Assembly (NCBI GenBank): GCA_025965515.1
Contig: JAOPWU010000149.1
Location: forward strand, 430-64,429
Origin: Mycobacterium sp.
GTDB taxonomy: Bacteria > Actinomycetota > Actinomycetes > RYN-182
Length of the DNA stretch: 64,000 bases
Reading direction: 5' to 3'
Shown: one piece after another, positions 47,986 through 54,577 of the stretch
Layout of the letters: the number at the start of each line of letters is the position of its first letter
How positions within the stretch are numbered: position 1 is the first letter of the stretch
The notes under the pieces: generated by a model
What the model was told of the DNA's origin: nothing
The model's database searches: none
What the model saw: only the letters and a program-made list of their open reading frames with translations
Program-made: the position numbers and the translations under genes

Positions 47986-48279
47986 TCAGCGGTAGGCGCG
48001 CCGGTGGTGGGGCCGGGCCAGCGCCAGCACTGCCACGTCGACCGCCACCGCGATGGCCGCCCCCCAGGCGACCCCCCGGGGGTCGGGCGTCGCCGCGGCC
48101 GTGTGCAGCCAGGCGAGCACCTCGGCGCGGGGCGTCGGGGAGACCGCCGCCCACATCGCCACCGGCAGCGCGGGCAACAGCACGAACGCCGCGCCGCCCC
48201 GACAGACCAGGCGCACCAGGTGGGGCATCAGCAGGATCACCGCGGCGGTCGCCACCAGGGTCCACTCCAGCGTCGTCAT
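47986..48279 (-). CDS. small hypothetical membrane protein
   Basis: 97 aa; two hydrophobic helices; high GC3; convergent with M42 peptidase. Confidence 0.35.
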   Translation of the reverse strand: MTTLEWTLVATAAVILLMPHLVRLVCRGGAAFVLLPALPVAMWAAVSPTPRAEVLAWLHTAAATPDPRGVAWGAAIAVAVDVAVLALARPHHRRAYR

Positions 48280-48377: not shown

Positions 48378-48986
48378 TCAGCGGTATTCGGGCCCCGCGA
48401 AGGTGGTCGCGGCCCGGCGCAGCACGGCCGCGCCGGCGCGGGCCTTCGCCGCCTGGCCCACGAGCGCGGGCGCCTCGTCGCTCGCCGGGTCGGCGAGCTG
48501 CTCGCGCCCCGCCGCGACGATGCCCAGGAACGCGGCGGCGCGGTCGGCGGCCGCGGCGAGCCGACCGCCGTACGCCAGCAGCAGGAGCGTCTCCCCGAAG
48601 CCGGCGAGATCGTCCGGTGTCGGGGTGTCCGGCAGCCCCGCCACCACCTCCGAGACCTGCTCGGCGTGGCGGCCCGTCTCGTACAGCAACCGGGCCTCGG
48701 CCGACCGGAAGTGCAGCCACGTCCGCAGCACGTGCAGCGTGAGCAGCACGTCCGGGAGGCTGCCGCTCTCGCTGCCGGACCAGGCCTCCGTCAGCTCGAC
48801 GACGCCCAGTTCGTCCGCACGGCGCAGCGCCAGTGCGGGGTCGTCGCGGCCCACGGTGAGCAGCGCCCGGGCGATGTCCTCCGCCAACTCGGCGCGGCGG
48901 CCGGGGGAGGAGTCCGGCGCGGGAGAGGCGGGGGGCTGCTGCGGCAGGCTCGCCGGGCGGCGGAAGCGGGCGGCGTCGTCGGTCAT
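48378..48986 (-). CDS. hypothetical protein
   Basis: 202 aa ORF with native-looking codon usage; no recognisable family. Confidence 0.45.
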   Translation of the reverse strand: MTDDAARFRRPASLPQQPPASPAPDSSPGRRAELAEDIARALLTVGRDDPALALRRADELGVVELTEAWSGSESGSLPDVLLTLHVLRTWLHFRSAEARLLYETGRHAEQVSEVVAGLPDTPTPDDLAGFGETLLLLAYGGRLAAAADRAAAFLGIVAAGREQLADPASDEAPALVGQAAKARAGAAVLRRAATTFAGPEYR

Positions 48987-49325
48987 CCCTGCGAGTGTCC
49001 CCCGAGGAGGCCCGACGACGCGCCATCGGCGGATTTCCCGGCTGGAGCCCCGGCAGGGGGAACACGGCGGGGCCCGAGAGGGGTTAGCCTGGACCAGCAG
49101 GGCCGGGCCGCATCACGGCCCCCGGGCTCACACCTTGTCGCTACGAGCGACGCCACGCCGAGAGGCGCCTGGCGGTCCGGTCCTGCACCTACGGTCCCGC
49201 TGCCCGCCCACCGGGCTGTCCGCCCGGAGGGTGTCCTGACCAGCCTGCGCGACGAGCCTGCGGGCCTGGGTCGGCCGGCGGCGGTCGCGCAGGAAAATTT
49301 CGAGCAGACGCGGTACGCCTGGCGC

Positions 49326-50753
49326 GTGCTGTCGGTGACGAGCCTCGGTGTCCTGCTCACCGGCGTGAACACGTCCTCGCTGGACGTGGCGCTGCCGAGC
49401 GTCGCCCGGCACTTCGACGCCTCACCGACCGCGGCCTCGTGGACGCTGCTGTCCTACATGCTCGTCATGACGATCCTGATCCTGGCGTTCGGCCGGCTGG
49501 CGGACATGGTCGGCCGGCGGCGGCTCTACCTGCTGGGGCTGGGCGTGCTGACGCTCGCCAGCCTCGGGTGCGCACTGAGCCCCACCGTCGGCTGGCTCAT
49601 CGGCTTCCGCGCGCTGCAGGCCGTCGGCGCGGCCGCCATCATCACCAACACGACGGCCCAGCTGACCGACGCGTTCCCCGCCCGGCTGCTCACGACGGGG
49701 CTCAGCCTGAACGTCGCGATCGCCGCGGCTGCGCAGGTGGTGGGCCCGGTCGTCGGCGGCATCACGGCCGGCGCGTGGGGCTGGCGCTGGGTCTTCGCCA
49801 TCAACGTGCCCATCGGCCTGGCCGGCCTCGCCTGGGCGTCGGTGACCCTGCGCCGGACGGCGGCCCCCCCACGCACCGAGCGGTTCGACCTGGGCGGTGC
49901 GCTGCTGTCGTTCGTGGTGCTGGGCGGCATCACGGTGGCGCTGTCGTTCGGTGGCGCCCACGGCTGGACGGATCCGCGGGTGCTGACGGCAGCGGCCGCC
50001 AGTCTGGTGTCCCTGCCGCTGTTCCTCCTCCTGCAGCGCCGCCGGCGTGACCCCCTGGTGGACCTGGCCCTGTTCGCCGATCGGGAGCGGGCGGCCGCCT
50101 ACCTCTCCACGTTCCTGCTGGCCATCGCCCGGTTCGCCGTGGTGCTGCTCGCAGCGCTCTTCCTGCAGGCGGTCCAGGGGCTCGACCCCGCCGGCGCGGG
50201 CGTGCGGGTGCTGCCCGTCGCCGCCGGGCTGTCGATCGCGAGCCCGGTCGCGGGCCGGCTCGCCGCTCGGTTCCCGGCCCGCACCGTCTCCTCCGCCGGG
50301 ATGCTCATCACCGCCGCCGGCCTGGCCGCGCTCGCCGTGCTGGTCAGCCCCCACGTGGGGTATCCGGCGCTCGCCGTGGCGCTGCTGGCGGTGGGCGTCG
50401 GCAGCGGCATCTTCATGACGCCGAACACCGCCTCCATCATGCGGAGCGTGCGGCCCGACCAGCGGGGCGTCGCGAACGGGGTGCGGTCGATGCTGCAGAA
50501 CACGGGCTATGCCGTGAGCACCGCGCTGTCGCTCGCACTGGTCACCCGGCCGCTGTCGCCGGACCAGCAGCGCGCGGCCTACGCGGGGACGCTGGCGCGA
50601 CTGCCGGGCGGCGACCTCGCCGCCTTCATCGGCGGCTACCGCGTCGCGTTCATCGTGCTGCTGAGTCTCTGCCTCGTCGGCGCGGTGGCCAGCCTGGCCC
50701 GGGGGAGTTCTCCCCCGCTGAGCCACCCCGAGCGTGCCGCTGACCTGGGATGA
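49326..50753 (+). CDS. MFS transporter (DHA-type, 12-14 TMS)
   Basis: GTG at residue 221 of ORF 48666..50753 (start uncertain); FGRLADMVGRRRLY motif A; multiple TM helices. Confidence 0.7.
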   Translation: MLSVTSLGVLLTGVNTSSLDVALPSVARHFDASPTAASWTLLSYMLVMTILILAFGRLADMVGRRRLYLLGLGVLTLASLGCALSPTVGWLIGFRALQAVGAAAIITNTTAQLTDAFPARLLTTGLSLNVAIAAAAQVVGPVVGGITAGAWGWRWVFAINVPIGLAGLAWASVTLRRTAAPPRTERFDLGGALLSFVVLGGITVALSFGGAHGWTDPRVLTAAAASLVSLPLFLLLQRRRRDPLVDLALFADRERAAAYLSTFLLAIARFAVVLLAALFLQAVQGLDPAGAGVRVLPVAAGLSIASPVAGRLAARFPARTVSSAGMLITAAGLAALAVLVSPHVGYPALAVALLAVGVGSGIFMTPNTASIMRSVRPDQRGVANGVRSMLQNTGYAVSTALSLALVTRPLSPDQQRAAYAGTLARLPGGDLAAFIGGYRVAFIVLLSLCLVGAVASLARGSSPPLSHPERAADLG

Positions 50754-53529
50754 CCGCACTGACTACCCTGGAGCCGTGAAGGCTCGCACCGAGCGGGAGC
50801 GCCAACGCGAGACGATCGCCGAGGCGCTCACCGACGCGGGCCGGGTGCTGGCCGAGACGGAGCGGTTGCGGGTGGCCGGGGCGCCGCTGCTGGGGACCAG
50901 CGCGGCGCAGTCCCACGCCGACCGCCGGGAGCGCCTGGCGGACCGGCTCACCCGGCTGACGGCCGAGCGCGACCAGGCGGACCGCGACCTCGCGGCCCAG
51001 CAGGCCATCCTCGAGCTGGTGCTGGACAGGCTCCTGCCCTCCCCGTACGCCTCGGTGGCCTGGAACGACCCCCACTGGGAGGAGTGGCAGCCGCCCGAGG
51101 ACCTGCCGGACGCCGTCCGCCTCGGCACCCTGCGGCTGGACACGGCGAGCGGCGCGGTCCCCACGGTCGCCGTCTGCCCGGTCCTCGAGCACCCCACCGT
51201 GATCCTGGCGGAGGAGACGGGGTCCCTGGAGGCCGCCACCACGGCGCTGCAGGTGCTGACGGCCCGGCTCATCGCGTCCTGCCCGCCGGGGACGCTGCGG
51301 GTGTCCCTCGCCGACCTCGCCGCGTTCGGGTCGCGGCTCGGGGCCGTCGGCGGCACCGCCGCGCCGCTGCGGGTGGGGCCCACGGCGACCTCGCCGGTCC
51401 AGCTGCGCGCGATGCTGGATGAGATCGGGACGCACATGGTGCGGCTCAACACGTCCGGGGCGCTCGCGGCGGGCCCCTTGACGGACCAGGTGCGCCAGCA
51501 CCTGCCGGGCCACGAACCGCTGCGGCTCGTCGTCGCCGCCGGGCTGCCCGCCGACCTGCCGACCGACCTGTGGCGGCAGCTGGGGGCCATCGCCCGCAAC
51601 GGGCCCGCCTGCGGCGTCCACCTCGTCGTCCTGCCGGAGGTGTACGCCCGGGAGGACCGCGACAAGCTGCTGACGTTGCTCGGGGAGCACGCCGTGGTGC
51701 TGCGGGCCGCGGACGGGGAGCTGCGGCTGTCGACCTACGACGACACGCTGGGCTCGATCACCCCGTACCGGCTGTTCTCCGACGCCGCTCCGGGCCCGGT
51801 GCAGCGGGCGCTGCTCGCCGAGTCGCTGCCGCGGGCGAGCGTCGGCACGCTGCAGGCCCCCGCGCTGCTCGACATGCTCACCGACGCCCCGGAGCGCAGC
51901 TCGCGCGACGGCCTGGCGATCCCCGCGGGGCTCACCGCGGACGGCGAGATCTGGTCGCTGTTCGTCAACGACGCGGCGCCGCACGGCCTGCTCGCCGGTC
52001 AGAGCGGCTCGGGCAAGAGCACGCTGCTGCACGGCCTGGTGCAGAGCGCCAGCACGCTGTACGCCCCCGACGAGTTGCAGCTCGTGATGCTCGACCTCAA
52101 GCAGGGCGTGGAGTTCGCGGAGTACCTGCAGGACGCCACGACTCCCGAGCTGCCGCACATCCGGCTGCTCGGCATCGATGTGGATGCGTACCAGGCGCTC
52201 GAGGTGCTGCGCTGGCTCGTCGCGGAGAACAGCCGCCGGCAGCGGCTGTTCCTCGCCGCCGGCGAGCGCAGCTCCACGGCCGTCCGCAACATCTACGAGT
52301 ACCGGCGCCTCACCGGGGAGCCGCTGCCGCGGCTGCTCGCCGTCATCGACGAGTTCCAGCAGCTCTTCGCCCCCGACGTCTCCGAGGAGGCGTGGACGCA
52401 CCTGCAGACCATCGCGAAGCTGGGGCGCAGCCAGGGCATGCACCTGCTGCTCGCCACGCAGGGGCTCACGGGCATGGCGGGTGGCATCCGGGAACGCGAG
52501 CCCGTGTTCGCGCAGCTGGCGACGCGCATGGCCCTGCGGTGCCGGCCCGCGGACGCCGTCGAGGTGCTGGGGCCCGGCCGGTCCGGCTCGGTGGCCGAGC
52601 TGCGGCGGCAGGGCGAGATGATCGTGGCCGCCGCCGGCGGCGCGATGAGCGAGGACCAGCGGGTCCGGGTTGCGTTCATGGACCCGCAACAGCGGCGCCG
52701 GCTGCGCACCGAGCGGGCGCTCGCGCTGCCGCCCGCCCCGCCGGTCGACACCGTGCGGGTGATCCGCGGCGACCAGCGCGTCCAGCTCTCCGGGATGCGG
52801 GTGCTCGGGGCGGTCGGTCCCGAGGCCGTGCCGCTCGGCATGACGTGCGTGCTGCGGGAACCCGTGGCGCGGGTGGACCTGCGCCCCCGCCGGGGCCGCG
52901 GGGTCGCGCTGGTGGCGCGCTCGGCGCCGCTCGCCACGGCCGCGCTGGCGACGCCGGCCGCCGTGCTGGCCGCGGGTGACGACGGCCGGCCCGTCGTGAT
53001 CGTCGACGAGGACGGCCGGCACCTGGCGGAGCTGGAGGGGCTCCTGGAGTGGCTGGGCCCCCGCGGCCGGGTGCTGGACGACCTGCCGGCCGACGCGGCG
53101 GGCGCGGCCGCGCTGGCGGCGGCGCTGCCCGAGCCGTCGATCGTGATCCTCCTCGACGTCCGGCACCCGGATCAGTTCGGGCCCGGCACGCTGGCGGAGC
53201 TGGCGAGCGGCAAGGAGGGGCACACGGTCCTCACGTGGCTGCGGCCCGAGGCCTGGCACCAGTGCGCACGGGTGCTGCGCGACATGCAGGTCCGGCTCGG
53301 CCGCGACATGCCCGTGACCGAGCTCTCCGCGACCCTCGGCGCGCGGCCGCCGCACCCCGCGCCCGACGGCTACCTGTGGTGGACGGACCTCGGCTCCGGC
53401 CGGCCGCCGCGGCTCGTGCGGCCGGCCGTCGCGCCGACCGCCGGGTCGCTCGAGGCCGACCTCGGTATCGCCGGGGGCCGTCGGGTCATCTCGCTCGACC
53501 CCGCGTCCCCGCGCCCGGTGGCGCCCTGA
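50734..53529 (+). CDS. FtsK/SpoIIIE family P-loop ATPase (EccC/EssC-like), no predicted TM segment; one intact and flanking degenerate FtsK-like domains
   Basis: Walker A GQSGSGKSTLLHGLV; Walker B LLAVIDEFQQL; HLLLATQ; upstream region (VLEHPTVILAEETGS...HLVVLPE) looks like a degenerate FtsK domain; start at GTG 50734 or GTG 50776. Confidence 0.8.
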   Translation: MPLTWDDRTDYPGAVKARTERERQRETIAEALTDAGRVLAETERLRVAGAPLLGTSAAQSHADRRERLADRLTRLTAERDQADRDLAAQQAILELVLDRLLPSPYASVAWNDPHWEEWQPPEDLPDAVRLGTLRLDTASGAVPTVAVCPVLEHPTVILAEETGSLEAATTALQVLTARLIASCPPGTLRVSLADLAAFGSRLGAVGGTAAPLRVGPTATSPVQLRAMLDEIGTHMVRLNTSGALAAGPLTDQVRQHLPGHEPLRLVVAAGLPADLPTDLWRQLGAIARNGPACGVHLVVLPEVYAREDRDKLLTLLGEHAVVLRAADGELRLSTYDDTLGSITPYRLFSDAAPGPVQRALLAESLPRASVGTLQAPALLDMLTDAPERSSRDGLAIPAGLTADGEIWSLFVNDAAPHGLLAGQSGSGKSTLLHGLVQSASTLYAPDELQLVMLDLKQGVEFAEYLQDATTPELPHIRLLGIDVDAYQALEVLRWLVAENSRRQRLFLAAGERSSTAVRNIYEYRRLTGEPLPRLLAVIDEFQQLFAPDVSEEAWTHLQTIAKLGRSQGMHLLLATQGLTGMAGGIREREPVFAQLATRMALRCRPADAVEVLGPGRSGSVAELRRQGEMIVAAAGGAMSEDQRVRVAFMDPQQRRRLRTERALALPPAPPVDTVRVIRGDQRVQLSGMRVLGAVGPEAVPLGMTCVLREPVARVDLRPRRGRGVALVARSAPLATAALATPAAVLAAGDDGRPVVIVDEDGRHLAELEGLLEWLGPRGRVLDDLPADAAGAAALAAALPEPSIVILLDVRHPDQFGPGTLAELASGKEGHTVLTWLRPEAWHQCARVLRDMQVRLGRDMPVTELSATLGARPPHPAPDGYLWWTDLGSGRPPRLVRPAVAPTAGSLEADLGIAGGRRVISLDPASPRPVAP

Positions 53530-54233
53530 TGACCGCCGAACTGGACCGCTACCTGCGCGAGATGCACGACCTCGCGGAGGCGGCCCGGTACCGCCAGGAG
53601 GCGGACGACGAGACGTGGCAGGCCACGCTCGACGTCCACGCGGCCGTCGTGGCGGGGCCGGACCGGCCCGTCGTCGTGGTCCAGCTCGACCGGGCGGCGG
53701 ACGAGCTGCGCGGGGTGCGGGACGAGGTCTGCCGGATCGCCGGGCTGCCGCGGCCGCTGGTGACGGAGGACCCGGACGCGCCGGGGCTGCCGGGGCCCGA
53801 GGCGGGGGTGGCGCAGTGGTCCGAGCGCCTGACGCAGCAGACCCTCGCGCTCGACCGCGCCCGCGGCCGGCTGCAGGAGCTGGCCGTCGCCTGGCGGATG
53901 GACGAGCGGGACCGTGAACGCTGGGAGGGCAGGCTCGGGCTGCTGCTGGCCCGGCTGGCCGGCCTGCTGGGGCCGGCCCTGCTGGTGCCCCTGCTCCTCG
54001 ACCTGCTCCCCGGGGTCAGCCGGGGCCAGAGCTGGCTGAGCCTGGTCCTGTCCGTGCTGCTGGCGGTCGCCGCGGGGGCGGGGGTGTGGCTCCGCGCCGC
54101 CAACCGGCGGGAGTTCTGCGACCGCGCCCTGGCGCTGACCGACCCCATGGTCAAGCTGCCGCACGCGGCCATCTTGTCCCGGCTTGCTTTGGGATTCGCG
54201 CTTTGGGGGATCCCGTGGCTGGTGGTGCGCTGA
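53529..54233 (+). CDS. membrane protein translationally coupled to the FtsK-like ATPase
   Basis: TGATG overlap with upstream stop; 234 aa; N-terminal soluble helical part then 2-3 TM helices (LLLARLAGLLGPALLVPLLLDLL, SLVLSVLLAVAAGAGVWL, LALGFALWGIPWLVV). Confidence 0.55.
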   Translation: MTAELDRYLREMHDLAEAARYRQEADDETWQATLDVHAAVVAGPDRPVVVVQLDRAADELRGVRDEVCRIAGLPRPLVTEDPDAPGLPGPEAGVAQWSERLTQQTLALDRARGRLQELAVAWRMDERDRERWEGRLGLLLARLAGLLGPALLVPLLLDLLPGVSRGQSWLSLVLSVLLAVAAGAGVWLRAANRREFCDRALALTDPMVKLPHAAILSRLALGFALWGIPWLVVR

Positions 54234-54319
54234 GGGGGAGGTCACGGGTTTCGCACGGCCCGATCATTCACACCCCGGTACTGATTCACTACGGGCAGTT
54301 GCACGGAAGCGGAGGAACC

Positions 54320-54577
54320 ATGGCGATCGACGTCACGAGGCAATCGATCAGCAAGGCGCTCGAGGACGTCACCGAGGCCAAGAAGACGTTCAGCACCGCG
54401 CTCGAAACGGTCGAGGACACGGTCAAGAGCCTCGAGAGCGAGATCTCGGGCAGCGAGAACGACAACGCGAACGAATCGATCTCGCTCGCGAAGAACGCCT
54501 TGGACTCCGCCGAGGAGGTCCTCGCGAAGCTGACCCAGAGCGCGGAGTCGCTGGAGCAGTACCTCCAGGTCCTCTAG
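54320..54577 (+). CDS. small (85 aa) all-helical protein, WXG100/EsxA-like size and architecture but no WXG motif
   Basis: GGAGGAACC RBS directly before ATG; predicted helix-loop-helix; high GC3 codon usage. Confidence 0.6.
   Translation: MAIDVTRQSISKALEDVTEAKKTFSTALETVEDTVKSLESEISGSENDNANESISLAKNALDSAEEVLAKLTQSAESLEQYLQVL

What the first reader, a model, noticed from the sequence alone, without database searches (positions are those of the whole stretch)
50734..54577. Orphan FtsK/SpoIIIE (EccC/EssC-like) ATPase without TM segment, coupled membrane protein and WXG100-like 85-aa protein: minimal T7SS-like or novel module
An FtsK/SpoIIIE ATPase beside a small roughly 90-aa helical hairpin protein is the classic type VII secretion signature. 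Here the ATPase has no TM helix or FHA domain. It has one intact P-loop domain flanked by apparently degenerate FtsK-like domains and a coiled-coil N-terminus. It is translationally coupled (TGATG) to a 234-aa protein with 2-3 TM helices that could supply membrane anchoring. The small protein lacks the WXG motif. No EccB/D/E, MycP, EssA/B, relaxase or integrase is nearby. This is therefore either a stripped-down secretion system, a DNA-translocase module, or an undescribed function such as defence.
Basis: partly seen in the sequence, partly recalled or inferred. Interest (0 to 1): 0.7.

Follow-up and report, generated by a model that had tools for sequence, protein, structure and literature searches.

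The report
Split type VII-like secretion ATPase module
Three adjacent genes encode a membrane-less EssC/EccC-type motor ATPase, a coupled membrane protein and a small helical-hairpin protein; this looks like a divergent actinobacterial version of a little-studied type VII-like secretion clade that has never been tested experimentally.

Summary
A (50734-53529, 931 aa) is an FtsK/SpoIIIE-type ATPase with no TM or FHA segment. [quoted passage not shown] B (53529-54233) overlaps A's stop codon (ATGA) and ends in three hydrophobic helices. C (54320-54577) is a confident helix-loop-helix hairpin without WXG.

The trio is not an orphan. A belongs to a large clade (at least 523 genome hits) of "three FtsK/HerA domains, only the middle active" YueA-like ATPases, noted in a 2012 footnote as a mobile T7SS variant. 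In Planctomycetota and Chloroflexi these ATPases sit beside WXG100 and LXG-like genes.

TM-less actinobacterial relatives (Micromonospora, Pseudonocardia, many soil contigs) repeat the layout: ATPase, a downstream helical or TM partner, and hairpin proteins of about 86 aa. C matches a profile of those hairpins (E 1.7e-4; 0 of 5000 shuffles reach its score).

The DNA-translocase and defence readings find no support. The most likely function is a minimal, split T7SS-like exporter, but secretion is inferred, not shown. About a dozen relatives show no membrane partner at the adjacent downstream position. I rate it a new variant of a known kind, of moderate interest.

The parts
50734..53529 (+). 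[quoted passage not shown]
   Evidence: GC3 is 0.97. Pfam FtsK_SpoIIIE hits aa 378-576. The AF2 model gives the domain layout. The best Foldseek hit is T. curvata EccC, 4nh0, E 8e-28. Family relatives reach E 1e-62 to 1e-30 over 57-80% of the length.
50764..51033 (+). N-terminal helical hairpin or stalk of A (aa 11-100).
   Evidence: AF2 predicts helices 11-47 and 55-100. In TM-bearing relatives the TM hairpin lies about 520 aa upstream of Walker A, so this stalk is what remains after that point.
51112..51849 (+). Domain 1 of A (aa 127-372): an alpha/beta P-loop-like fold with no Walker A, resembling the EccC 'DUF' domain.
   Evidence: AF2 secondary structure supports the fold. Conserved family columns in this region are R178, D194, L228, L283 and G290. 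No G....GK[ST] motif is present.
51913..52725 (+). Domain 2 of A (aa 394-664): the only catalytically intact ATPase domain. Walker A GQSGSGKS is at nt 51997-52020, and Walker B VIDEF is at aa 537-541.
   Evidence: Supported. It matches the D1 region of TIGR03924 EccCa, profile positions 404-609.
52903..53475 (+). Domain 3 of A (aa 724-914): a degenerate P-loop-like alpha/beta domain. It is not a winged-helix DNA-binding domain.
   Evidence: AF2 shows alternating strands and helices. Pfam gave no FtsK_gamma hit. The Foldseek alignment to three-domain EccC spans 938 columns.
53529..54233 (+). Gene B: a 234-aa protein with a soluble helical N-terminal half and three C-terminal hydrophobic helices. 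It is translationally coupled to A through an ATGA overlap.
   Evidence: Sequence, hydropathy, GC3 0.966. Only close relatives exist, at 97% and 91% identity. It matches no family. Downstream partners with the same architecture occur in L013, L004, L087, L119 and L140.
54311..54316 (+). Shine-Dalgarno sequence GGAGGA for gene C, within an 86-nt B-C spacer.
   Evidence: Sequence. The spacer is identical in L005 and has 9 of 86 positions changed in L006.
54320..54577 (+). Gene C: an 85-aa helix-loop-helix hairpin with no WXG motif. It is a distant member of the 86-aa hairpin family encoded beside TM-less actinobacterial ATPases of this clade.
   Evidence: AF2 gives pLDDT 91. GC3 is 0.965. It scores E 1.7e-4 and 21.8 bits against an HMM built from 12 hairpins. 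The alignment is gapless and end to end. None of 5000 shuffles reaches the score. Pfam WXG100 gives only E 0.045, below cut-off.

Best explanation
The trio is a divergent, minimal and split type VII-like export module.

Shown:
- A is a TM-less member of the YueA/EssC-like ATPase clade that has three FtsK/HerA domains with only the middle one catalytically intact.
- Members of this clade that carry their own TM hairpin are encoded in operons with WXG100-family and LXG-like (polymorphic toxin) proteins.
- B is co-translated with A and carries three predicted TM helices.
- C is a helical hairpin belonging to a family of about 86 aa that accompanies the TM-less actinobacterial ATPases.

Inferred:
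- A forms a hexameric ring, as FtsK and EccC do.
- A's N-terminal helical stalk pairs with the helical N-terminal half of B. This tethers the ring under a bundle of B transmembrane helices that replaces the TM hairpin fused to the ATPase in other clade members.
- ATP turnover in the middle domain drives export. The two degenerate domains act as scaffold or substrate-docking and regulatory sites.
- C, probably as a dimer, is recognised through its conserved C-terminal tail (…SLEQYLQVL). It is then exported, or acts as an Esx/Lap-like adaptor for cargo encoded elsewhere.
For: Fold and motifs of A:
- A has three P-loop-like domains and only the middle one is intact.
- This matches the description in Zhang et al. 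2012, PMC3482391 footnote 6.

Affinity to secretion ATPases:
- TIGR03924 EccCa gives E 3.5e-31 and EssC 2.8e-23, against FtsK 1.6e-6.
- The top Foldseek hits are EccC and EssC multi-domain structures.

Clade context:
- The genome scan found at least 523 relatives.
- In Planctomycetota the operon runs: 90-aa protein, then a protein of about 219 aa, then one of about 72 aa, then the ATPase.
- Of the 90-aa proteins tested, 14 of 16 pass as Pfam WXG100.
- The proteins of about 219 aa are LXG-like, and some carry toxin-type C-termini.

TM-less relatives with a separate TM partner directly downstream, some with WXG100 or LXG-like genes: L013 and L004.

Actinobacterial synteny:
- Micromonospora eburnea has MFS, ATPase, a coupled 259-aa TM protein and an 87-aa DUF6244 protein. 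This arrangement is conserved across the genus.
- Type IIa loci pair the ATPase with a TM protein of about 235 aa (9 loci). Type I loci have two hairpins upstream of the ATPase (at least 12 loci).
- By crude gene calls, a TM protein lies downstream of 13 of 57 TM-less ATPases and of 4 of 62 TM-bearing ones.

Protein C:
- It is a hairpin.
- It matches the hairpin-family profile, and shuffle, reversed-sequence and unrelated-hairpin controls all score far lower.
- Its C-terminal helix aligns with the 'ExYLxQR' tail of the WXG100-like family (probability only 36%).
Against: - No experiment exists for any member of this clade, and secretion is inferred only from gene neighbourhood.
- C lacks WXG and falls below the Pfam and TIGR WXG100 cut-offs. 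The profile-profile comparison of the hairpin family with the WXG100-like family is negative, at probability 0.8%.
- B has no detectable homology to any other downstream partner or to the N-terminal TM module of full-length ATPases. hhalign probabilities are 0.1-14%.
- About a dozen TM-less type I loci have a soluble protein of about 110 aa downstream, where B sits in the window. A membrane partner at that position is therefore not universal, and type I may not be secretory.
- No toxin, immunity gene or other T7SS component lies nearby in the window.
- A sits on a long, isolated branch, with at most 34% identity to anything else.
Confidence: 0.55

Rival explanations
1. This is a cytoplasmic or membrane-proximal remodelling machine, not an exporter. 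The TM-less ATPase assembles, disassembles or unfolds the small hairpin proteins. These hairpins would act inside the cell, for example as structural or regulatory coiled-coil proteins at the membrane or septum. In some lineages B merely localises the ATPase.
For: - Type I relatives (at least 12 loci) show two hairpins, the ATPase and a soluble protein of about 110 aa in the flanking genes I listed, with no TM protein directly downstream of the ATPase.
- Only about a quarter to 40% of TM-less ATPases have a TM protein directly downstream.
- The module sits among housekeeping genes and is conserved genus-wide in Micromonospora. That pattern suits a cell-biological role.
- C lacks WXG, and no toxin cargo is nearby.
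Against: - The closest characterised relatives by sequence and fold are secretion ATPases.
- Clade members that have TMs are linked to WXG100 and LXG toxin genes.
- In the window itself, B supplies three TM helices and is translationally coupled to A.
Confidence: 0.2
2. This is an anti-phage or conflict system. A would be an FtsK/HerA-type NTPase sensor or motor, comparable to SspH, HerA or MADS components, working with a membrane effector (B) and a small regulator (C).
For: PADLOC gives partial hits to SspH (E 1e-22), mad8 (9e-14) and HerA (5e-5).
Against: - Those hits cover only the generic P-loop domain, aa 365-606.
- B and C hit no defence models convincingly.
- No nuclease, methylase or other effector genes are adjacent.
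- The locus has a conserved chromosomal position and is conserved genus-wide, so it is not island-like.
Confidence: 0.07
3. This is a DNA translocase for conjugation or chromosome segregation, in the manner of TraB, FtsK or SffA, with B as a membrane or septal targeting factor.
For: - A carries an FtsK/SpoIIIE P-loop domain.
- FtsK motor structures and the TcpA coupling protein match the single active domain.
- Streptomyces TraB/Spd and SmeA-SffA are actinobacterial precedents for an ATPase working with a small membrane protein (my own knowledge).
Against: - The FtsK model scores 26 bits, against 109 bits for EccCa.
- There is no gamma or winged-helix domain. The C-terminus is a third P-loop-like domain.
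- No integrase, relaxase or replication genes appeared in the ±5 kb flanks scanned with Pfam, and no tRNA gene anywhere in the window.
- Relatives are linked to WXG100, LXG and hairpin genes rather than to mobile elements.
Confidence: 0.04

Closest known systems
[quoted passage not shown] It is computationally noted only.
   Same: - The domain logic is identical: a degenerate, an active and a degenerate P-loop domain.
- Homology extends over 57-80% of A, at E values down to 1e-62.
- The neighbouring genes encode small helical-hairpin proteins.
   Different: [quoted passage not shown]
- The common form of about 1300 aa carries its own TM hairpin. A does not, and a separate coupled TM protein follows it.
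- The small partner here lacks WXG and belongs to an unannotated 86-aa family.
EccC (T7SSa/ESX) and EssC (T7SSb), the membrane-bound FtsK-like ATPases of type VII secretion
   Same: - They are the best sequence and fold matches.
- They share the tandem P-loop domain architecture.
- EccC also has a degenerate 'DUF' ATPase-like domain before the active D1.
- ESX systems can split EccC into a membrane-bound EccCa and a soluble EccCb.
   Different: - EccC and EssC have TM helices plus DUF plus three nucleotide-binding domains. A has no TM and only three domains in total.
- A scores far below the curated cut-offs: 108.7 against 509 bits for EccCa, and 81.6 against 778 for EssC.
- No EccB/D/E/MycP or EssA/B/EsaA/EsaB genes were seen nearby.
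- A is not among the T7SSa-j variants catalogued by Garrett et al. 2024 (PMC11217815), all of which are described as membrane-bound.
WXG100/EsxA-EsxB, and the Lap-type small helical partners that lack WXG
   Same: - The proteins are of about 85-100 aa and form a helix-turn-helix hairpin.
- They are encoded next to the ATPase.
- Relatives occur as tandem paralogue pairs, like EsxA/EsxB.
- Garrett et al. note Lap proteins with the same fold but no WXG motif.
   Different: - C has no Trp.
- Pfam WXG100 gives E 0.045 and TIGR03930 gives 0.0054, both below cut-off.
- The profile-profile comparison with the WXG100-like family is negative.
- No YxxxD/E motif is present.
DUF6244 (PF19757), an uncharacterised actinobacterial family of about 87 aa
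   Same: It occupies the same position in Micromonospora: ATPase, then TM protein, then an 87-aa hairpin. UniProt auto-labels one member as EspC-like.
   Different: - C does not hit DUF6244.
- Only weak sub-threshold matches, E 0.012-0.07, link other 86-aa hairpins to it.
- No paper mentions the family.

Membership tests
Three-domain, middle-active YueA/EssC-like ATPase clade (Zhang et al. 2012 footnote) | Three tandem HerA/FtsK-type P-loop domains | tested here: met
   The AF2 model has alpha/beta domains at 127-372, 394-664 and 724-914. Foldseek aligns 938 columns to the three-ATPase EccC structure 4nh0, E 8e-28.
Three-domain, middle-active YueA/EssC-like ATPase clade (Zhang et al. 2012 footnote) | Only the middle domain retains the Walker A and B motifs | tested here: met
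   There is a single G....GK[ST] motif, at aa 422, and DEF at 539-541. Both flanking domains lack these motifs, in A and in the family consensus.
Three-domain, middle-active YueA/EssC-like ATPase clade (Zhang et al. 2012 footnote) | Sequence homology extends beyond the generic P-loop domain to clade members | tested here: met
   Hits P0002-P0040 mostly cover 57-80% of A, at E 1e-62 to 1e-32. Canonical EccC hits cover only 19-36%. Invariant columns occur in all three domains.
Three-domain, middle-active YueA/EssC-like ATPase clade (Zhang et al. 2012 footnote) | A neighbouring solo WXG-domain protein | tested here: inconclusive
   Relatives meet this feature: 14 of 16 neighbouring 90-aa proteins pass Pfam WXG100. 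In the window the neighbour C is a hairpin without WXG and falls below the WXG100 cut-off.
Canonical T7SSa (ESX) | An EccC with N-terminal TM helices, a DUF domain and three nucleotide-binding domains, passing the TIGR03924/03925 cut-offs | tested here: not met
   A scores 108.7 bits against a cut-off of 509, and 48.9 against 346. It has no TM segment.
Canonical T7SSa (ESX) | EccB, EccD, EccE and MycP encoded in the locus | tested here: not met
   The flanking genes are an M42 peptidase, unknowns, an MFS transporter, an aldo-keto reductase and a PAP2/DAGK protein. This was checked only for about ±5 kb, not the whole genome.
T7SSb (Ess) | An EssC with N-terminal FHA domains, plus EssA, EssB, EsaA and EsaB | tested here: not met
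   Pfam gave no FHA hit. TIGR03928 scores 81.6 bits against a cut-off of 778. B matches no family.
WXG100 (PF06013 / TIGR03930), tested for protein C | A helix-turn-helix hairpin of about 100 aa | tested here: met
   AF2 gives helices 2-42 and 48-84 with pLDDT 91.
WXG100 (PF06013 / TIGR03930), tested for protein C | A W-x-G motif in the turn, and a score above the family cut-off | tested here: not met
   C has no Trp. Pfam scores 14.5 bits against a cut-off of 27.3, and TIGR03930 scores 16.9 against 44.85. hhalign of the hairpin family against the WXG100-like family gives probability 0.8%.
86-aa hairpin family of TM-less actinobacterial loci (unnamed; defined here) | Profile match, the same length, and a gene adjacent to a clade ATPase | tested here: met
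   An HMM of 12 members, built without C, scores C at 21.8 bits, E 1.7e-4 among 14750 ORFs. The alignment is gapless, 85 against 86 aa. None of 5000 shuffles reaches 21.8 bits (maximum 15.6). The reversed sequence scores 6.1 and other hairpin families score at most 7.9.
DUF6244 (PF19757), tested for protein C | Pfam score above 31.6 bits | tested here: not met
   DUF6244 is not among C's hits with E up to 0.045. The Micromonospora counterpart scores 92 bits.
FtsK/SpoIIIE/TraB DNA translocases | A C-terminal gamma or winged-helix DNA-recognition domain, and a single motor domain | tested here: not met
   Pfam gave no FtsK_gamma hit. The C-terminus is a third P-loop-like domain. NF007615 FtsK scores 26 bits against a cut-off of 1566.
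FtsK/SpoIIIE/TraB DNA translocases | Mobile-element or division-gene context | tested here: not met
   The flanking genes I scanned include no integrase, relaxase or replication genes, and the window holds no tRNA gene.
Known defence systems (PADLOC) | Full-length matches of the components to a defined system | tested here: not met
   Only the P-loop region of A matches SspH, mad8 and HerA. B has no hit, and C has only coiled-coil noise.

The most novel reading that the evidence does not exclude
The TM-less branch of this ATPase clade (the window trio and the actinobacterial type I and II loci) may not be a secretion motor at all. It may be a cytoplasmic or membrane-associated machine that remodels dedicated Esx-like hairpin proteins. 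That would be a new cellular function for EssC/EccC-type ATPases, conserved as a core module in genera such as Micromonospora and Pseudonocardia.
Probability: 0.2. Interest if true: 0.75.

Novelty: new variant of a known kind. Interest (0 to 1): 0.5.

Why it matters
Type VII secretion is currently framed around membrane-embedded EccC and EssC in Actinomycetota and Bacillota (T7SSa-j). This locus points to a third, very widespread ATPase clade with a three-domain, middle-active architecture, and nobody has tested it experimentally.

Within that clade it shows an actinobacterial lineage where the motor has lost its TM hairpin. In those loci the motor is paired with fast-evolving membrane or soluble partners and with non-WXG hairpin proteins.

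If the module exports proteins, it would be an ESX-independent route in antibiotic-producing actinomycetes. It would also be a natural 'split' system for working out which parts of an EccC-type machine form the channel. If it does not export, it reveals a new job for these ATPases.

Either outcome can be tested directly in Micromonospora, where the homologous ATPase, TM protein and DUF6244 trio is conserved across the genus.

Tried and rejected
- **Pairwise BLASTP of B and C against partners.** I compared them with the Pseudonocardia, Micromonospora and L004 partners and found nothing. Only profiles revealed C's family.
- **Homologue searches for B and C.**
  - B has only relatives at 91% identity or more.
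  - C found nothing in the word-indexed search.
  - In the exhaustive 1.84-billion-protein search C found only a 1469-aa protein with four matched stretches, which I take for a compositional (coiled-coil-type) match.
  - C's exact sequence is not in the collection.
- **B as a detached N-terminal TM module of the full-length ATPases.** hhalign probabilities were 7-12%, so homology is not shown. All three TM partners did align at the helix just before TM1.
- **Homology among the four downstream-partner families.** hhalign probabilities were 14% or less, so I rejected it. Conservation is architectural only.
- **Hairpin family against the WXG100-like family.**
  - Profile-profile comparison gave probability 0.8%.
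  - The PDB profile search gave no match better than E 0.002; the best Esx-named match was S. aureus EsxA at E 0.5.
  - Foldseek with the C model was non-specific, as expected for a hairpin.
- **Promoter and terminator consensus scans.** They were uninformative in this high-GC DNA.
- **An MFS transporter as a conserved fourth component.** An MFS gene lies upstream in the window and in Micromonospora. The multi-TM proteins upstream in other loci do not look like MFS transporters by inspection; I did not run a family scan on them. I treat the pairing as probable coincidence.
- **Looking up the source contig by protein A.** It was not on record.
- **The NJ tree.** It is crude, based on distances with no support values. 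I use it only to say that A is on a long branch outside the canonical EccC/EssC group.
Full report
**What is there**

The window is high-GC actinobacterial DNA, about 72-79% G+C around the locus. Third-position GC analysis picks out three consecutive + strand genes:
- A: 50734-53529, 931 aa, GC3 0.973.
- B: 53529-54233, 234 aa, GC3 0.966.
- C: 54320-54577, 85 aa, GC3 0.965.

A's TGA stop (53527-53529) shares its last base with B's ATG (53529-53531). C has its own GGAGGA 3 nt upstream of its ATG, after an 86-nt spacer.

The source record is a MAG labelled 'Mycobacterium sp.', with accessions MCW2745419.1 for A and MCW2745420.1 for B. C's exact sequence is not in the protein collection searched.

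Two short metagenome contigs carry the same A-B-C-aldo/keto-reductase order. In one, C is 100% identical. In the other it is 95% identical and keeps the reading frame. At the DNA level C diverges less than B: 8/258 against 42/702 positions. All three genes are therefore real.

**The ATPase**

- Pfam finds one FtsK_SpoIIIE domain (aa 378-576, E 1e-28), and gave no FHA and no FtsK_gamma hit.
- There is one Walker A (GQSGSGKS at aa 422) and one Walker B (VIDEF), and no TM-grade hydrophobic stretch outside a buried strand of domain 3.
- An AF2 model built on a 24-sequence family alignment (pLDDT 72.5) shows a long helical hairpin (aa 11-100). Three alpha/beta P-loop-like domains follow, at 127-372, 394-664 and 724-914.
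- Only the middle domain keeps the catalytic motifs, both in A and in the family consensus.
- Foldseek's best PDB match is the three-ATPase cytoplasmic portion of Thermomonospora curvata EccC (4nh0, E 8e-28, 938 aligned columns). EccC and EssC D2-D3 structures come next. FtsK motors and the TcpA coupling protein match a single domain only.
- NCBIfam ranks EccCa (E 3.5e-31) and EssC (2.8e-23) far above FtsK (1.6e-6). All are far below the curated family cut-offs.

**The family**

A is not an orphan.
- The protein search found a family of single-Walker-A FtsK-type proteins that align over 57-80% of A, at E down to 1e-62 and at most 34% identity. Canonical EccC proteins align only over the P-loop domain.
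- A scan of one genome per species found at least 523 relatives, mostly in Planctomycetota. Others are in Chloroflexi, Acidobacteriota, Verrucomicrobiota, a Thiodictyon MAG, a cable bacterium and a firmicute.
- The common form is about 1300 aa and has two TM helices about 520 residues upstream of Walker A. A substantial subgroup of 840-1100 aa, including A, lacks them.

This is the ATPase type that Zhang et al. [quoted passage not shown] The 2024 catalogue of T7SSa-j covers only Gram-positive bacteria with membrane-bound ATPases and does not include it (PMC11217815). I found no experimental paper on the clade.

**Gene neighbourhoods of relatives**

In Planctomycetota the ATPase is preceded by a conserved operon:
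- A 90-aa protein. 14 of 16 tested pass Pfam WXG100. It carries the motif W-R-D and a conserved C-terminal …ExYLxQR.
- An LXG-like protein of about 219 aa. Some have extra C-terminal toxin-type domains, such as a ParB-like GRHR motif or an HExxH motif.
- A protein of about 72 aa with a W…W.D motif, whose gene overlaps the ATPase start.

In TM-less members from Anaerolineales (L013) and another MAG (L004), the gene touching the ATPase stop encodes a 292-305-aa protein. It has a helical N-terminal half and a C-terminal TM hairpin. WXG100, LXG-like and 72-aa-family genes follow. That is the same logic as A-B-C.

**Actinobacterial relatives**

Micromonospora eburnea has an MFS transporter, an 842-aa ATPase, a coupled 259-aa multi-TM protein and an 87-aa DUF6244 protein (92 bits). 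This is the same order as the window, including the MFS gene. The DUF6244 protein is conserved across the genus, and UniProt has auto-labelled one member as EspC-like.

A metagenome scan added about 25 high-GC TM-less loci. They fall into three groups:
- **Type I** (at least 12 loci, including Pseudonocardia): an 86-aa hairpin plus a paralogue of about 83 aa upstream, and a soluble protein of about 110 aa downstream.
- **Type IIa** (9 loci): a downstream protein of about 235 aa with 2-3 TM helices. In two of these loci an 86-aa hairpin also lies upstream.
- **Type IIb** (Micromonospora-like): a TM partner plus an 86/87-aa hairpin.

By my crude gene calls, a TM protein follows 13 of 57 TM-less ATPases and 4 of 62 TM-bearing ones. 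Several further TM partners were missed by the gene caller but recovered by profile search.

**Protein C**

AF2 on the single sequence gives a confident helix-loop-helix, with helices 2-42 and 48-84 at pLDDT 91. C has no Trp, and its WXG100 scores are below cut-off.

An HMM built from 12 type I 86-aa hairpins, without C, scores C at 21.8 bits. That is E 1.7e-4 among 14,750 six-frame ORFs, with a gapless end-to-end alignment of 85 against 86 aa. The alignment shares the N-terminal MA.I(E/D)..R start, a G-S turn and a C-terminal Leu.

Controls:
- None of 5000 shuffles of C reaches that score; the maximum is 15.6.
- The reversed sequence scores 6.1.
- WXG100-like hairpins score at most 7.9.

Iterated searches join the 86-aa family, its 83-aa paralogue, the type IIb hairpins and C. 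I therefore file C as a distant member of this unnamed hairpin family.

Links from that family to WXG100 and DUF6244 are only hints:
- Sub-threshold Pfam hits, with WXG100 the most frequent at 4 of 14 members and DUF6244 at 3 of 14.
- A full-length, in-register but non-significant match to S. aureus EsxA in the PDB profile search, E 0.5.
- A negative profile-profile test.

C's C-terminal helix aligns with the …ExYL… tail of the planctomycete WXG100-like proteins, at probability 36% only.

**Protein B**

B has only near-identical relatives and matches no family. It has no detectable homology to the other downstream partners, or to the N-terminal TM module of the full-length ATPases.

What recurs is the architecture and position. 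A helical cytoplasmic half is followed by 2-4 TM helices, and the gene abuts the ATPase stop codon. Taken together, A (stalk plus three domains) and B (helical region plus TMs) reproduce the parts list of the 1300-aa proteins in a different order. That is an inference, not shown homology.

**Mechanism**

Shown:
- Clade membership of A.
- A single active site.
- Translational coupling of A and B.
- Predicted TM helices in B.
- The hairpin fold of C and its family membership.
- Recurrent synteny in relatives.
- WXG100 and LXG linkage in TM-bearing and some TM-less relatives.

Inferred:
- A forms a hexamer.
- A's N-terminal stalk docks onto B.
- B's helices form or gate the membrane passage.
- C is recognised through its C-terminal tail, and is exported or acts as an Esx/Lap-type adaptor.

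I put this at 0.55.

The main rival, at 0.2, is a non-secretory remodelling role. It is motivated by the type I loci, which have a soluble rather than a membrane protein at the adjacent downstream position.

Defence (0.07) rests only on P-loop-level PADLOC hits.

DNA translocation (0.04) is contradicted by three things. There is no DNA-binding C-terminal domain. The match to FtsK models is much weaker. There is no mobile-element context.

**Verdict**

It is a new variant of a known but barely described and untested kind. The new elements are:
- occurrence in actinobacteria;
- a TM-less motor with a separately encoded, fast-evolving membrane partner;
- a non-WXG hairpin family.

Interest is moderate, at 0.5. 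It would not overturn anything. It does flag a widespread, experimentally untouched T7SS-like clade and a tractable entry point in Micromonospora.

Noticed in passing
window 1-21000 versus 21000-64000: G+C content is 62-69% over the first 20 kb or so and 72-79% in the rest. The lower-GC part encodes a 2-oxoacid dehydrogenase E1/E2/E3 set, a branched-chain amino-acid ABC transporter, flavin oxidoreductases and an APH-type kinase. It could be an acquired catabolic island or a MAG assembly or binning join.
   Followed up: partly
whole window (source record): The source MAG is labelled 'Mycobacterium sp.'. However, about 75% G+C over most of the window is above what I know for mycobacteria (my own knowledge), so the taxonomic label looks doubtful.
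   Followed up: no
window 54320-54577: Gene C's exact protein sequence is absent from the 15-billion-protein collection and from the 1.84-billion representative library. Yet it has genome-typical codon usage, its own SD sequence and stronger conservation than B. It is a likely missed small gene.
   Followed up: yes
window 48666-50753; L087 6336-7859: An MFS transporter gene lies directly upstream of the ATPase, both in the window and in Micromonospora eburnea. In the window the MFS ORF overlaps A's annotated GTG start by 20 nt. Upstream multi-TM proteins in other loci do not look like MFS transporters by inspection; no family scan was run on them. The pairing is probably coincidence.
   Followed up: partly
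L008, L011, L019, L039, L053 and others, 1-2 kb upstream of the ATPase: Planctomycete operons run WXG100-like (90 aa, motif W-R-D, tail ExYLxQR), then LXG-like (about 219 aa), then a 72-aa protein with a W..W.D motif and no Pfam family, then the ATPase. The 72-aa gene overlaps the ATPase start by 4 nt. The 72-aa family appears undescribed.
   Followed up: partly
L018 7656-8555; L028 11337-12260; L043 6678-7742; L004 11827-12849: Some LXG-like proteins in these loci carry C-terminal toxin-type domains. Examples are a ParB-like '…TNGRHRIKVA…' motif and an HExxH metallopeptidase-like motif. Small candidate immunity genes follow them.
   Followed up: no
L001 11884-16007; L150, L153, L155: Type I loci (two hairpins, ATPase, protein of about 110 aa) repeatedly sit next to a DUF6104 mini-protein (MYFTDRGIEEL…) and the 2-oxoglutarate dehydrogenase gene. 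This suggests a conserved chromosomal position in Pseudonocardia-like genomes.
   Followed up: no
L122, L125, L128, L132, L134, L135, L137, L154, L164 (low-GC gut metagenome contigs): A nearly identical low-GC (about 0.30-0.35) locus recurs in at least nine contigs from different assemblies. The gene order by length is 230, 89, 411 and 68 aa, then a TM-less 881-aa ATPase, then 135, about 220-229, and 470 aa.
   Followed up: no
window 47986-48279 (-) and 48378-48986 (-): Two high-GC3 ORFs lie on the opposite strand just upstream of the MFS gene. One is a 97-aa hydrophobic protein and the other is 202 aa. Neither has any Pfam, NCBIfam or PADLOC match.
   Followed up: no
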